In this document: in pieces, positions 11,927 to 47,636 of the stretch
Numbering within the stretch: the first letter of the stretch is position 1
Layout of the letters: each line of letters opens with the position of its first letter
NCBI RefSeq assembly: GCF_003334785.1
Contig: NZ_QOWV01000020.1
Length of the DNA stretch: 61,363 bases
Source of the DNA: Escherichia coli
GTDB taxonomy: Bacteria > Pseudomonadota > Gammaproteobacteria > Enterobacterales > Enterobacteriaceae
Reading direction: 5' to 3' (one strand)
Made by a program: the position numbers and the translations under genes
Notes under the pieces: model-generated
Told to the model about the DNA's origin: nothing
What the model saw: the letters and a program-made list of their open reading frames with translations, nothing else
Database searches by the model: none

Positions 11927-12002
11927 TGGCTCCTCTGACTGGACTCGAACCAGTGACATACGGATTAACAGTCCGCCGTTCTACCGACTGAACTACAGAG
12001 GA
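11927..12002 (-). tRNA. asnU: tRNA-Asn (GTT)
   Basis: Identical 76-nt tRNA-Asn sequence on the minus strand; copy name by synteny between cbl and yeeO. Confidence 0.95.
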
Positions 12003-13750: not shown

Positions 13751-13826
13751 TCCTCTGTAGTTCAGTCGGTAGAACGGCGGACTGTTAATCCGTATGTCAC
13801 TGGTTCGAGTCCAGTCAGAGGAGCCA
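13751..13826 (+). tRNA. asnW: tRNA-Asn (GTT)
   Basis: Same 76-nt tRNA-Asn sequence on the plus strand, opposite in orientation to the other three copies; followed by a hairpin and T-run at about 13889..13927. Confidence 0.95.
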
Positions 13827-44400: not shown

Positions 44401-44517
44401 TAACTGCTGCGGCGTTAAATTCAGTTCCTGTATGAGCCGCTCGCGTAATTGTTGGTAATCAGCCGCGTGGCGGTTGTCCGGTAACAGCGAATCCTGAGAT
44501 GGTGCGCCAGAAATCAT
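38410..44517 (-). CDS. irp2: HMWP2, NRPS yersiniabactin synthetase (cyclisation / adenylation / carrier domains)
   Basis: Uninterrupted ORF; probable start MISGAPSQ at 44517 (ORF track 44535). Adenylation motifs [42 protein letters not shown] motif [14 protein letters not shown]. Confidence 0.95.
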
Positions 44518-44564
44518 TCTTCCTCCTGATGGCACGTCTTACCGAAAAGCATTACTCATATGAG

Positions 44565-44625
44565 AATAATAATTATTAACAATTGGATGCTACCCGAAAC
44601 GGGTTTATTTATGCCCGTTTCGGGT
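44565..44625. promoter_or_regulatory. irp2 promoter region: Fur-box-like site plus YbtA-type inverted repeat
   Basis: AATAATAATTATTAAC (Fur-like) followed by ACCCGAAACGGGTTTATTTATGCCCGTTTCGGGT, sharing its core with the repeat upstream of fyuA. Confidence 0.55.
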
Positions 44626-44644: not shown

Positions 44645-44675
44645 CAGAGGCCCGGATGGGGTATCCGGGCCTCTG
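44645..44675 (-). terminator. Hairpin downstream of ybtA (putative terminator)
   Basis: Perfect inverted repeat CAGAGGCCCGGAT-GGGG-TATCCGGGCCTCTG immediately 3' of the ybtA stop. Confidence 0.5.
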
Positions 44676-44707: not shown

Positions 44708-45667
44708 TTACATCCCGCGTTTAAAGGTCGAAGGAGTTACGCCAAACTGTTTCTGGAAGGCGGCAGAGAAATGGCTGGCGTTGGCATAGCCCAGATCGGC
44801 CGCCACCGTCATGACGGAGGTATTGCCGTTGGCCAGGCGTCTTCTGGCTTCCTGCATTCGTTCAGCCTGAAACAGGCCATAGACGCTGTTGTTGAACAGA
44901 ACGCGGAAGCCTCGCTTAATTTTGAGAACGCTCAGACCGGACTCTCTGGCCAGCTCCGCGACGCCCGGCGCTTGCGTCAGATCAGCCAGCAGCAGATCCT
45001 TCGCCCGCAGCAGTTTCTGGCGTTCCATCGGGTTGAAGTGGCAGGAGAGGCAACTGGCGTCTTCGCGATGTTCATCCAGCACCAGACTGAGCATGACCAG
45101 ACTTTGCCCCTGCAACCATAGCGTCGACGGCTTTTGTTCATGACTGAAGCCGCCGTGCATGCGCATCAGCGCGTGACGCAAGGCCTGAGCCGTTAAGTGG
45201 GTTTCAGCATTACAACGCTGCTGCTGGCAACAGCAGTGGGAGTCGATCTTATTCTTAATGACCGCGCTAATATCCGGCACCCACAGCGCGAGGGTTTCAG
45301 GGCTGAAGGAGAGGGTAATGCTCTCGAATCGGCCACAATAGGAGGCGCTGCCGCGACAGTCTGGCGTATGGGTAATGTAATGACGATTGCGCGCAAGCTC
45401 CCAGTCGGTGTGGCGCCGGAGTCCCTGAATCGCAAAGCGCGATGTGCCTTCCAGGATGCACGAGAAGTTAATCCTGCCCAGATCGTCGTGTAGCTGCAAC
45501 GTCTCAGGCCGCGCAAAATGGCCCCTCCAGAGCAAAATATCCATACCTTCCTGCAACGAACAGCGCAGCAGTTCACACTGAGCAGGAATATTGCCATCGT
45601 TTGCAGGTTTCCCGACCACCAACTGGTGAATAGAGATTTCAGATTGCGTTTGCGGTGACTCCATCAT
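44708..45667 (-). CDS. ybtA: AraC-family transcriptional activator of the yersiniabactin regulon
   Basis: 319 aa; C-terminal AraC-type HTH (...ANASHFSAAFQKQFGVTPSTFKRG); divergent from ybtP. Confidence 0.9.
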   Translation of the reverse strand: MMESPQTQSEISIHQLVVGKPANDGNIPAQCELLRCSLQEGMDILLWRGHFARPETLQLHDDLGRINFSCILEGTSRFAIQGLRRHTDWELARNRHYITHTPDCRGSASYCGRFESITLSFSPETLALWVPDISAVIKNKIDSHCCCQQQRCNAETHLTAQALRHALMRMHGGFSHEQKPSTLWLQGQSLVMLSLVLDEHREDASCLSCHFNPMERQKLLRAKDLLLADLTQAPGVAELARESGLSVLKIKRGFRVLFNNSVYGLFQAERMQEARRRLANGNTSVMTVAADLGYANASHFSAAFQKQFGVTPSTFKRGM

Positions 45668-45737
45668 GACCTGGTTATCTCCCTGTGGCTTAGACCAATG
45701 CGGGTATAAATAGAACCGAATGGGGTAGATGAGTTAT

Positions 45738-45756
45738 TGATAATGGTTATTATTCA
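45738..45756. promoter_or_regulatory. Fur-box-like site in the divergent ybtA / ybtP promoter region
   Basis: TGATAATGGTTATTATTCA matches about 13 of 19 positions of the Fur consensus GATAATGATAATCATTATC. Confidence 0.45.
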
Positions 45757-45833
45757 CATTAATTCTCAGAACGCCACCCTGAATTGTCGTTTTTGGCGTC
45801 CGTAAAAATTCATCAGGAAATTCAGTTACTCCC

Positions 45834-47636
45834 ATGTCATCTCAATCATCCAATACTGAATCGCTGTCCCGATTTCCTCTCTGGCAGGTGATTACACCGG
45901 TTCGCAGGAAGGTTATTTTAGCTATGGCGCTGGCGGGGCTGGCGGCATTAACCAGCCTGGGGGCGCTCCTTTTTCTGGCGTGGAGCCTGCGTGACATTCG
46001 CGCGACGCCTGACGCTATTCCGGCCTGGCCGCTGGGCGGCGTGATCGGCTGCGTGGTCTTAACTTTTGTTCTGCGCTTACAGGCGTTCAACACCTCTCAT
46101 TACGCGGCTTTTCATCTGGAGAACATTCTGCGCAGCAGGTTAGCCCGTAAAGCATTGCAGCTTCCGCCAGGCGTGTTACAGCAAATGGGCAGCGGGTCAG
46201 TGGCGAAAGTGATGCTGGATGACGTGAAGTCGTTACATATTTTTGTGGCCGACAGCACGCCGCTCTATGTCCGCGCGATCATCATGCCGCTGGCGACAAT
46301 CGTTATCTTGTTCTGGCTGGACTGGCGGCTGGCAATCGCGACGCTGGGGGTACTGGCGTTTGGATCGGTTGTTCTCGTGCTCGCCCGCCAGCGTTCGGAA
46401 GATATGGCTCAGCGTTATCATAAGGCGCGCGAGCAGGTTAGCGCGGCGGTTATTGAGTTCGTGCAGGCCATGCCCGTGGTGAGAACGTTTGATAGCGGCA
46501 GCACCAGTTTTTTGCGCTATCAACGCGCCCTTGAAGAGTGGGTCGATGTGCTCAAAACCTGGTATCGCAAAGCCGGTTTTTCAGCGCGTTTTTCCTTCTC
46601 GATTCTGAATCCTCTCCCGACCCTGTTTGTCCTGATCTGGTCGGGATACGGCCTGTTGCACTATGGCAGTTTCGATTTTATCGCGTGGGTGGCCGTTTTA
46701 CTGATGGGCAGCGGAATGGCCGAAGCCGTAATGCCAATGATGATGCTCAATAACCTGGTCGCGCAAACGCGTTTAAGCATTCAGCGTATTTATCAGGTTC
46801 TCGCGATGCCGGAGTTATCGCTGCCGCAGTCTGACCAGCAGCCGCAAGAGGCGAGCATTACCTTTGAGCAGGTGAGCTTTCATTATCCGCAAGCGCGTAC
46901 TGGCGCCGCGTTGCAGGAGGTGAGCTTTCATGTGCCTGCCGGGCAAATTGTGGCGCTGGTCGGGCCAAGCGGTGCCGGAAAAAGCACCGTGGCGCGCTTG
47001 CTGCTGCGTTACGCCGACCCGGACAAAGGCCATATCCGTATTGGCGGCGTGGATCTGCGTGATATGCAGACGGACACCCTGATGAAGCAACTCTCGTTTG
47101 TGTTTCAGGACAACTTCCTTTTTGTCGACACGATAGCCAATAACATTCGTCTGGGCGCGCCGGATACGCCGCTGGAGGCGGTAATAGCGGCGGCCAGAGT
47201 GGCGCAGGCCCATGATTTTATTAGCGCTCTGCCAGAAGGTTACAACACTCGAGTCGGGGAACGTGGGGTATTTCTCTCCGGCGGCCAGCGGCAGCGCATT
47301 ACTATCGCCCGGGCGCTTTTGCAGGATCGCCCCATCCTGGTGCTCGATGAGGCGACGGCGTTTGCTGACCCGGAAAACGAAGCGGCGCTTATCAAGGCGC
47401 TCGCGGCGGCCATGCGTGGCCGGACGGTCATCATGGTCGCGCATCGTCTCTCAATGGTGACTCAGGCCGATGTGATATTGCTGTTTTCCGACGGACAGCT
47501 CAGGGAAATGGGGAACCATACGCAACTGTTGGCGCAGGGCGGCCTGTATCAACGGCTCTGGCAACACTATCAGCAGGCGCAGCATTGGGTGCCGGGTGGA
47601 ACACAGGAAGAGGTGGTGGAAAATGAAAGACAATAA
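45834..47636 (+). CDS. ybtP: ABC transporter, fused permease-ATPase (yersiniabactin uptake)
   Basis: 600 aa; N-terminal TM domain; Walker A GPSGAGKST, ABC signature LSGGQRQR, Walker B ILVLDEAT. Confidence 0.9.
   Translation: MSSQSSNTESLSRFPLWQVITPVRRKVILAMALAGLAALTSLGALLFLAWSLRDIRATPDAIPAWPLGGVIGCVVLTFVLRLQAFNTSHYAAFHLENILRSRLARKALQLPPGVLQQMGSGSVAKVMLDDVKSLHIFVADSTPLYVRAIIMPLATIVILFWLDWRLAIATLGVLAFGSVVLVLARQRSEDMAQRYHKAREQVSAAVIEFVQAMPVVRTFDSGSTSFLRYQRALEEWVDVLKTWYRKAGFSARFSFSILNPLPTLFVLIWSGYGLLHYGSFDFIAWVAVLLMGSGMAEAVMPMMMLNNLVAQTRLSIQRIYQVLAMPELSLPQSDQQPQEASITFEQVSFHYPQARTGAALQEVSFHVPAGQIVALVGPSGAGKSTVARLLLRYADPDKGHIRIGGVDLRDMQTDTLMKQLSFVFQDNFLFVDTIANNIRLGAPDTPLEAVIAAARVAQAHDFISALPEGYNTRVGERGVFLSGGQRQRITIARALLQDRPILVLDEATAFADPENEAALIKALAAAMRGRTVIMVAHRLSMVTQADVILLFSDGQLREMGNHTQLLAQGGLYQRLWQHYQQAQHWVPGGTQEEVVENERQ

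What the first reader, a model, noticed from the sequence alone, without database searches (positions are those of the whole stretch)
45668..45833. Divergent ybtA / ybtP control region with a single Fur-like site
The 166-bp intergenic region holds one 19-bp Fur-box-like sequence (45738-45756) between the two divergent start codons. I did not see a clear copy of the YbtA-type repeat here, unlike at fyuA and irp2.
Basis: seen in the sequence. Interest (0 to 1): 0.25.

Follow-up and report, generated by a model that had tools for sequence, protein, structure and literature searches.

The report
Known ybtA–ybtP Fur/YbtA control region
This is the well-studied switch between the yersiniabactin regulator gene ybtA and the transporter operon ybtPQXS.

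Summary
[quoted passage not shown] It is 100% identical in the top-listed E. coli genomes and at least 99% identical in 2266 of the 2268 that carry it.

The Fur box is real. Only 0.16% of shuffles reach that score. A second register overlaps it at 45733-45751.

The claim that no YbtA-type repeat is present is wrong. A repeat pair lies at 45692-45705 and 45713-45728, collinear with the fyuA and irp2 pairs and at the same distance from the Fur box. It matches 22 of 32 positions, the best non-self hit in the 61-kb window, reached by 0.02% of shuffles. An independent weight matrix ranks the two units 4th and 28th of 122,696 positions.

The repeat cores and the Fur 19-mer are unchanged in a Klebsiella oxytoca ortholog whose flanking genes are 11-14% diverged. 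The same layout precedes YbtA-like genes in Ralstonia and Burkholderia.

Published work on E. coli and Yersinia describes three YbtA sites plus the Fur box here. I could not place the third site by sequence, and I could not fetch Yersinia DNA. Verdict: already known, low interest.

The parts
44708..45667 (-). ybtA coding sequence (AraC-type regulator, 319 aa)
   Evidence: ORF list. Annotated ybtA in matching E. coli genomes.
45677..45688 (-). CCACAGGGAGAT in the ybtA leader: the published CsrA-binding motif, overlapping the likely ribosome-binding site
   Evidence: Sequence extracted. It matches the motif CCACAGGGAGAU tested by RNA EMSA and mutation in E. coli M1/5 (PMC8805033).
45692..45705 (+). 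YbtA-type repeat unit distal to the Fur box: AGACCAATGCGGGT, or ATACCCGCATTGGTCT when read towards ybtA over 45692-45707
   Evidence: Matches the unit consensus at 10/14. Weight-matrix rank 28 of 122,696 with a matrix that excludes this locus. Aligned in register with the fyuA and irp2 units. The core is unchanged in K. oxytoca.
45713..45728 (+). YbtA-type repeat unit next to the Fur box: GAACCGAATGGGGTAG, or CTACCCCATTCGGTTC when read towards ybtA
   Evidence: Matches at 11/14-15. Weight-matrix rank 4 of 122,696; only the fyuA and irp2 units used to build the matrix score higher. The CTACCC end is invariant in all five aligned modules, including Ralstonia and Burkholderia. Unchanged in K. oxytoca.
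45733..45757 (.). Extended Fur site made of two overlapping 19-mers: 45739-45757 (15/19) and 45733-45751 (14/19)
   Evidence: Consensus scan of the window and shuffles. A near-identical 19-mer, one base different, was bound by Fur in EMSA on pESI and Y. pseudotuberculosis DNA (PMC11225919).
45733..45733 (-). Inferred ybtA transcription start (a C on the - strand), giving a 66-nt leader
   Evidence: Transferred by alignment from the RACE-mapped start in pESI: a C five bases downstream of the Fur box and 266 bases upstream of the ATG, with a 201-bp insertion in between. Inferred, not measured for this sequence.
45740..45745 (-). Candidate ybtA -10 hexamer CATTAT, inside the Fur box
   Evidence: Its position relative to the inferred start is -12 to -7. 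PMC11225919 states that the Fur box overlaps the ybtA -10. The consensus scan finds no strong sigma-70 promoter here.
45764..45769 (-). Candidate ybtA -35 hexamer CTGAGA (4/6, 18-nt spacer)
   Evidence: My reading of the sequence. Weak, and below the threshold of the promoter scan.
45748..45753 (+). Candidate ybtP -10 hexamer TATTAT, inside the Fur box. The matching -35 position (45725-45730, GTAGAT) overlaps the end of the Fur-adjacent repeat.
   Evidence: Inference from the sequence and from the shared layout with irp2, whose Fur box overlaps its predicted -10 (PMC11225919). No start site was mapped here.
45774..45790 (.). Best candidate for the published third YbtA site (RS3), on the ybtP side of the Fur box. 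The assignment is weak.
   Evidence: The reporter constructs in PMC5634559 place RS3 beyond the Fur box as seen from ybtA. By sequence it matches only 8/14-15 and ranks 567 of 122,696, which is chance level.
45783..45799 (+). Block ATTGTCGTTTTTGGCGT in the ybtP leader, shared with the fyuA leader (25250-25269, - strand)
   Evidence: There are only two matches in the window, both in the sense orientation of a YbtA-activated gene, with none in 100 shuffles. Its function is unknown.
45834..47636 (+). ybtP coding sequence (600 aa), first gene of ybtPQXS
   Evidence: ORF list. The N-terminus is identical to PDB 6P6I chain A, which is 600 residues.

Best explanation
The region is the known bidirectional control region of the yersiniabactin locus. 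Two back-to-back, overlapping, intrinsically weak promoters (ybtA leftward, ybtPQXS rightward) share one extended Fur site at 45733-45757.

- Fur. The site covers the likely -10 elements of both promoters, so iron-loaded Fur represses both.
- YbtA repeats. A pair of YbtA-type repeats (45692-45705 and 45713-45728) sits immediately to the left of the Fur site. Seen from ybtP it is in the same position and orientation as at fyuA and irp2: the CTACCC/GGGTAG end abuts the -35 region. That is the usual place for an AraC-type activator to recruit RNA polymerase.
- Autorepression. Seen from ybtA, the same pair lies at about +6 to +42 of the transcript. YbtA bound there would hinder ybtA transcription. 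One bound protein complex would therefore activate ybtPQXS and repress ybtA.
- Further layers from the literature. A third YbtA site lies on the ybtP side of the Fur box, and a CsrA site lies in the ybtA leader.

Shown here: the sequence elements, their statistics, their register with fyuA and irp2, and their conservation. Taken from papers: protein binding and the direction of regulation. Inferred: the promoter hexamers and the roadblock geometry.
For: - Identity. The stretch 45400-46100 is 100% identical in the top-listed E. coli genomes, at least 99% identical in 2266 of 2268 matching genomes, and annotated ybtA | ybtP.
- Fur. The site is top-scoring in the window and reaches a score seen in 0.16% of shuffles. 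Fur shifted near-identical DNA in EMSA, and the box overlaps the ybtA -10 (PMC11225919).
- Repeat pair. It aligns essentially without gaps to the fyuA and irp2 modules. It matches the composite at 22/32, the best non-self hit in 61 kb, with the next best at 19. Only 0.02% of shuffles reach that score. Weight-matrix ranks are 4 and 28 of 122,696. The gap to the Fur box is 10 nt, against 10 nt at fyuA and 9 nt at irp2.
- Conservation. In K. oxytoca the intergenic region is 94.0% identical, against 89.2% for ybtA and 86.1% for ybtP. None of the 10 changes falls in the primary Fur 19-mer or the repeat cores.
- Distant relatives. YbtA homologs in Ralstonia (51% identity) and B. gladioli (46%) keep the order Fur box, 8 nt, CTACCC-type unit, 7-8 nt, second unit, regulator gene.
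- Start site. The ybtA start transferred from pESI RACE falls at 45733.
- Literature. [quoted passage not shown] Two YbtA sites lie in the ybtA 5' leader (PMC8805033). Fur and YbtA target all four ybt operons directly (PMC3521224). Repeats and a Fur box are drawn in the UTI89 operon-1 promoter (PMC8725597).
Against: - No binding or expression data exist for this exact window. Everything functional is carried over from identical or near-identical sequences in papers.
- The repeat units are degenerate (10/14 and 11/14), and the distal unit alone would not stand out strongly (rank 28).
- No sigma-70 consensus promoter is detected, and the ybtP start site is not mapped here.
- The third published site cannot be recognised by sequence.
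- PMC5634559 reports that YbtA raises ybtA promoter activity in HPI-negative backgrounds, so simple autorepression is not the whole story.
- I could not read the primary footprinting papers (Anisimov 2005; Fetherston 1996, 1999), which are not held. Unit names RS1/RS2 could therefore not be matched to my coordinates with certainty.
Confidence: 0.9

Rival explanations
1. The region is controlled directly only by Fur. It holds no YbtA operator, so any YbtA effect on ybtPQXS is indirect or acts from elsewhere.
For: The units differ from the near-perfect fyuA and irp2 copies at 11-13 of 36 positions and are easy to miss by eye. No strong promoter consensus is present.
Against: The pair is collinear with fyuA and irp2 and statistically exceptional. 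It is conserved in K. oxytoca and in Burkholderiales. Several papers state that YbtA sites lie in this region.
Confidence: 0.03
2. The repeat-like pair is a decaying relic of an ancestral promoter-module duplication. It is recognisable by homology but no longer bound by YbtA. Regulation runs through the third site or other factors.
For: The pair is more degenerate than at fyuA and irp2. The three promoters are clearly paralogous over about 75 nt, so similarity alone could reflect descent.
Against: The cores are unchanged in K. oxytoca while the flanking genes have diverged by 11-14%. The same two-unit layout persists next to regulators that are only 46-51% identical, which drift would not preserve. 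Reporter and literature data assign function to these sites.
Confidence: 0.04
3. The pair serves only ybtA autorepression, as a roadblock in the leader. Activation of ybtPQXS depends on the third site on the ybtP side.
For: The pair lies at +6 to +42 of the inferred ybtA transcript. A third site exists beyond the Fur box.
Against: Relative to ybtP, the pair has exactly the position and orientation it has at fyuA and irp2, where it is the only upstream element. A site downstream of the ybtP -10 would be an unusual position for an AraC-type activator (established knowledge of the family).
Confidence: 0.05

Closest known systems
ybtA-irp6 (ybtP) divergent overlapping promoters of the Yersinia HPI (Anisimov et al. 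2005, FEMS Microbiol Lett 250:27, cited in PMC5634559 and PMC11225919; Fetherston et al. 1996 and 1999)
   Same: Same genes, same island, same elements: a Fur box flanked by YbtA repeated sequences. The E. coli NU14 version was dissected with reporter fusions (PMC5634559). The DNA is 100% identical in the top-listed E. coli genomes and at least 99% identical in nearly all that carry it.
   Different: Nothing of substance. Y. enterocolitica carries a 125-bp ERIC insertion and pESI a 201-bp insertion in the ybtA leader (PMC11225919). The window has neither.
fyuA (psn) and irp2 promoters of the same island
   Same: The order is repeat, AAATA spacer, repeat ending in GGGTAG, 9-10 nt, then Fur box. 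All three align in register.
   Different: The ybtP copy is degenerate, at 23/36 and 25/36 identity against 32/36 between fyuA and irp2. It also doubles as a leader element of the divergent ybtA gene.
PchR / PchR-box control of the pyochelin genes in Pseudomonas aeruginosa (Michel et al. 2005, cited in PMC3672683)
   Same: A siderophore-responsive AraC-type regulator that acts together with Fur. From my own knowledge, it activates biosynthesis and receptor genes and represses its own gene.
   Different: A different operator sequence and organism. I did not compare the sequences here; the resemblance in mechanism comes from the literature and memory.
YbtA-like regulator loci of Ralstonia solanacearum and Burkholderia gladioli
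   Same: A Fur box, 8 nt, a CTACCC-type unit, 7-8 nt, a second unit, then the regulator gene, all divergent from an iron-uptake gene.
   Different: The divergent partner is a TonB-dependent receptor gene, not an ABC transporter. The regulators are only 46-51% identical to YbtA. Whether these sites have been studied is unknown to me.

Membership tests
Fur box (Fur operator) | Match to the 19-bp 9-1-9 consensus GATAATGATAATCATTATC | tested here: met
   15/19 at 45739-45757, plus an overlapping 14/19 at 45733-45751. Top of the window. A score of 15/19 or more occurs in 0.16% of shuffles.
Fur box (Fur operator) | Overlaps core promoter elements of an iron-repressed gene | tested here: inconclusive
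   The -10 CATTAT lies inside the box once the pESI RACE start is transferred to 45733. No start site was measured for this sequence, and no consensus promoter was detected.
Fur box (Fur operator) | Bound by Fur; transcription repressed by iron | not testable with these tools
   EMSA with Fur on pESI and Y. pseudotuberculosis fragments, and derepression in a fur mutant, are reported in PMC11225919.
YbtA repeated sequences (RS operator of the yersiniabactin regulon) | Sequence similarity to the repeats upstream of fyuA/psn and irp2 | tested here: met
   22/32 to the composite, the best non-self hit in 61 kb. Reached by 0.02% of shuffles. Weight-matrix ranks 4 and 28 of 122,696.
YbtA repeated sequences (RS operator of the yersiniabactin regulon) | Two units separated by an A/T-rich spacer of 7-9 nt, at a fixed distance upstream of the Fur box and oriented towards the activated gene | tested here: met
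   Essentially ungapped alignment with fyuA and irp2. The gap to the Fur box is 10 nt, against 10 and 9 nt.
YbtA repeated sequences (RS operator of the yersiniabactin regulon) | Conserved in orthologous loci | tested here: met
   The cores are invariant in K. indica and K. oxytoca. The intergenic region is more conserved than the flanking genes. The module is present in Ralstonia and Burkholderia. Yersinia DNA itself could not be fetched.
YbtA repeated sequences (RS operator of the yersiniabactin regulon) | Bound by YbtA; needed for activation of ybtPQXS and repression of ybtA | not testable with these tools
   Stated in PMC5634559, PMC8805033, PMC3521224 and PMC11225919, which cite Anisimov 2005 and Fetherston 1996. 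The primary papers are not held.
YbtA repeated sequences (RS operator of the yersiniabactin regulon) | Third site (RS3) on the far side of the Fur box | tested here: inconclusive
   The reporter constructs imply it lies within 45758-45833. The best sequence match, 45775-45790, is at chance level with rank 567.

The most novel reading that the evidence does not exclude
The block ATTGTCG(N0-3)TTTTTGGCGT is found only in the ybtP leader (45783-45799) and the fyuA leader (25250-25269). It might be a functional cis-element that has not been described as such. It could be the sequence basis of the poorly defined third YbtA site, or a shared target in the two mRNA leaders. Separately, the Fur box plus two-unit operator module is conserved as far as Burkholderiales. 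That would make it an old, portable regulatory cassette of thiazoline-siderophore loci.
Probability: 0.2. Interest if true: 0.3.

Novelty: already known. Interest (0 to 1): 0.08.

Why it matters
The finding matters little as a discovery. This control region has been dissected since the late 1990s in Yersinia and later in uropathogenic E. coli and Salmonella pESI. The useful outcome is a correction: the yersiniabactin transporter operon does carry the YbtA operator. All four ybt transcription units in this window therefore share the same Fur plus YbtA logic. Degenerate operators like this one can be recovered by aligning paralogous promoters in register rather than by looking for near-exact repeats.

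Tried and rejected
- Yersinia comparison. It returned only Klebsiella indica and K. oxytoca, so no Yersinia DNA could be aligned. A look-up by exact YbtA protein gave 10 loci without organism names, all 99.5-100% identical. The listed cluster members were E. coli or Klebsiella.
- Primary papers and review. Anisimov 2005 and Perry & Fetherston 2011 are not held. Full-text searches for the operator strings and for 'RS3' found nothing. One RS1/RS2/RS3 search was swamped by SNP identifiers.
- Third YbtA site. Consensus and weight-matrix scans did not lift any site on the ybtP side above chance.
- RNA structure. The ybtP, fyuA and ybtA leaders fold no better than shuffles, with z-scores of +0.83, -0.34 and +0.60. 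I rejected a structured-leader reading.
- Promoter consensus scan. It found no sites, so the hexamers I give are weak inferences.
- NCBIfam. It has no YbtA-specific model, so the Ralstonia and Burkholderia proteins could only be called AraC-family.

Full report
**What is there**

The window carries the Yersinia high-pathogenicity island as found in E. coli. The stretch 45400-46100 is 100% identical in the top-listed E. coli genomes. It is at least 99% identical in 2266 of the 2268 complete genomes that carry it, and it is annotated ybtA | ybtP.

The ybtA ORF is 44708-45667 on the minus strand. PGAP annotates a shorter, 570-residue YbtP that would start at window 45924. The solved YbtP chain in PDB 6P6I has 600 residues and begins MSSQSS, so 45834 is the better start.

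**The Fur site**

I scanned the whole window on both strands against GATAATGATAATCATTATC.
- The top hits are 45739-45757 (15/19 on the minus strand, 14/19 on the plus strand) and the irp2 box at 44562-44580 (15/19).
- The fyuA box scores 13/19.
- A second register, 45733-45751, scores 14/19 and is shifted by six bases. The site is therefore an extended element of about 25 bp, not strictly a single 19-mer.
- In 5000 dinucleotide shuffles of the 166 bp, a match of 15/19 or better appeared in 0.16%.

A 19-mer that differs by one base was bound by purified Fur on Salmonella pESI and Y. pseudotuberculosis fragments. That paper also states that the box overlaps the ybtA -10 (PMC11225919).

I aligned the fyuA, irp2 and ybtP upstream regions, each in its gene's direction. 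The alignment is essentially ungapped, with one 1-nt gap in irp2. It shows the same order in all three: a repeat unit, an AAATA-containing spacer, a second unit ending in GGGTAG, 9-10 nt, then the Fur box.

The ybtP copy is GACCAATGCGGGTATAAATAGAACCGAATGGGGTAG at 45693-45728.
- It is identical to the fyuA copy at 23/36 positions and to the irp2 copy at 25/36. The fyuA and irp2 copies match each other at 32/36.
- The gap to the Fur box is 10 nt, against 10 and 9 nt.
- Against a composite of the 32 positions shared by fyuA and irp2, the ybtP site scores 22. That is the best non-self hit among all positions on both strands of the 61-kb window; the next best scores 19.
- Only 0.02% of shuffles of the 166 bp reach 22 anywhere, before position and orientation are even required.
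- I built a weight matrix from eight units that exclude this locus: four from fyuA and irp2, and four from Ralstonia and Burkholderia. It ranks 45713-45728 4th and 45692-45707 28th of 122,696 positions.

That criterion is met.

**Conservation**

Klebsiella oxytoca NBRC 105695 (L002) carries a diverged ortholog.

| Segment | Identity to the window |
|---|---|
| ybtA coding sequence | 89.2% |
| ybtP coding sequence (first 1500 nt) | 86.1% |
| irp2-ybtA spacer | 85.2% |
| ybtA-ybtP intergenic region | 94.0%, no indels |

The ten substitutions in the intergenic region fall at 45672, 45692-45693, 45707, 45735, 45784, 45786-45787 and 45826-45827. None lies in the primary Fur 19-mer or in the repeat cores.

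Much more distant relatives give the same picture. Plasmid-borne YbtA homologs in Ralstonia solanacearum (51% identity) and Burkholderia gladioli (46% identity) were found. Each is preceded by a Fur box, 8 nt, a unit beginning CTACCC, 7-8 nt, a second unit, and then the regulator's start codon. Each is divergent from a TonB-dependent siderophore receptor gene. All five modules align almost without gaps, with CTACCC invariant.

**How it most likely works**

The ybtA transcription start was mapped by RACE in pESI. It is a C five bases downstream of the Fur box and 266 bases upstream of the ATG, with a 201-bp insertion in between.

Aligning pESI (L013) to the window puts this start at 45733, which is a C on the minus strand. 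The leader is then 66 nt. Three things follow.
- CATTAT (45740-45745) is the -10 and lies inside the Fur box.
- A weak CTGAGA (45764-45769) is a possible -35.
- The repeat pair lies at about +6 to +42 of the ybtA transcript.

This agrees with the published statement that two YbtA sites lie in the ybtA 5' leader (PMC8805033).

Seen from ybtP, the pair sits where it does at fyuA and irp2. Its GGGTAG end abuts a poor -35 position (GTAGAT, 45725-45730), 17 nt upstream of TATTAT (45748-45753), which is also inside the Fur box. This is the usual arrangement for an AraC-type activator.

I therefore read the region as two overlapping back-to-back promoters sharing one Fur operator. A single YbtA operator activates ybtPQXS and hinders ybtA.

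The regulation itself is taken from the literature: activation of ybtPQXS, repression of ybtA, and direct targeting by Fur and YbtA (PMC3521224; PMC5634559). The promoter hexamers and the roadblock geometry are my inference. The consensus scan found no strong promoter, which fits dependence on an activator but proves nothing.

PMC5634559 also reports that YbtA raises ybtA promoter activity in HPI-negative hosts. The autoregulation is therefore not fully understood.

**Other elements in the gap**

- The CsrA motif CCACAGGGAGAT, tested in E. coli M1/5, is at 45677-45688 on the minus strand and overlaps the ribosome-binding region.
- The reporter constructs in PMC5634559 give the order, starting from ybtA, as RS2, RS1, Fur box, RS3. 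A third YbtA site should therefore lie in 45758-45833. I could not identify it. The best match, 45775-45790, is at chance level.
- In the same stretch, the block ATTGTCGTTTTTGGCGT (45783-45799) recurs as ATTGTCGGTATTTTTGGCGT in the fyuA leader. It occurs nowhere else in the window, and none was found in 100 shuffles.
- This block may be the third site, a remnant of promoter paralogy, or something else. The leaders show no unusual RNA folding.

**Comparison with what is known, and verdict**

This is the ybtA-irp6/ybtP control region described by Fetherston and Perry and by Anisimov and colleagues. It has been re-examined in E. coli NU14, UTI89 and M1/5 and in Salmonella pESI. Every sequence-level defining feature I could test is met, apart from the two marked inconclusive in the membership table. 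Protein binding cannot be tested with these tools.

Two limits remain. I could not fetch Yersinia DNA, because the single genome-collection scan returned only Klebsiella. I also could not read the primary footprinting papers, so the published unit names cannot be matched to my coordinates with certainty.

The finding is real but already known.

Noticed in passing
window 45783-45799 (+) and 25250-25269 (-): The block ATTGTCG(N0-3)TTTTTGGCGT occurs exactly twice in the window, in the sense leaders of ybtP and fyuA. None was found in 100 shuffles. In K. oxytoca the TTTTTGGCGT half is kept while ATTGTCG changes. Its function is unknown; it may relate to the published third YbtA site.
   Followed up: partly
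window 45834 versus 45924: RefSeq/PGAP annotates ybtP with a 570-residue start, equivalent to window 45924. The solved YbtP chain (PDB 6P6I) has 600 residues starting at the 45834 ATG. With the PGAP start the 'intergenic' region would be 256 bp.
   Followed up: yes
window 52224-53150 (join at about 53016/53017): The HPI integrase gene next to tRNA-Asn (53301-53376) lacks 347 bp relative to E. coli Nissle 1917. That leaves a 308-codon ORF instead of about 420 codons, so the integrase is probably inactive. The island as a whole is 99.4% identical to Nissle.
   Followed up: partly
L013 (Salmonella Infantis pESI-type plasmid) 746-946, equivalent to window 45705/45706: The 201-bp insertion reported for pESI sits between the two YbtA repeat units. 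Its ends are TACCC...GGGTA and it is flanked by GGGCATA / GGGTATA, which looks like a small non-autonomous mobile element. It moves the two units about 200 bp apart.
   Followed up: partly
L015 3880-3979 (Ralstonia solanacearum) and L016 3882-3975 (Burkholderia gladioli): YbtA homologs of 46-51% identity keep the same order of Fur box, CTACCC unit, second unit and regulator gene, divergent from a TonB-dependent receptor gene.
   Followed up: partly
window 44649-44664 (-): ATACCCCATCCGGGCC scores 13.9 bits with the repeat-unit weight matrix, among the top hits in the window. It lies inside a GC-rich inverted repeat just downstream of ybtA (GAGGCCCGGAT...ATCCGGGCCTC, followed by TGTTCTTT). That inverted repeat looks like the ybtA terminator, upstream of the irp2 repeats. 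The match is probably coincidental.
   Followed up: no
window 9518-9593, 11927-12002, 13751-13826, 53301-53376: Four tRNA-Asn genes are present, consistent with the E. coli asn tRNA cluster. The island sits next to the one at 53301.
   Followed up: no
window 44517-44535: The mechanical ORF list starts irp2 at a GTG at 44535 (2041 codons). The annotated gene has 2035 codons and starts at the ATG at 44517-44515, six bases after AGGAGG.
   Followed up: yes
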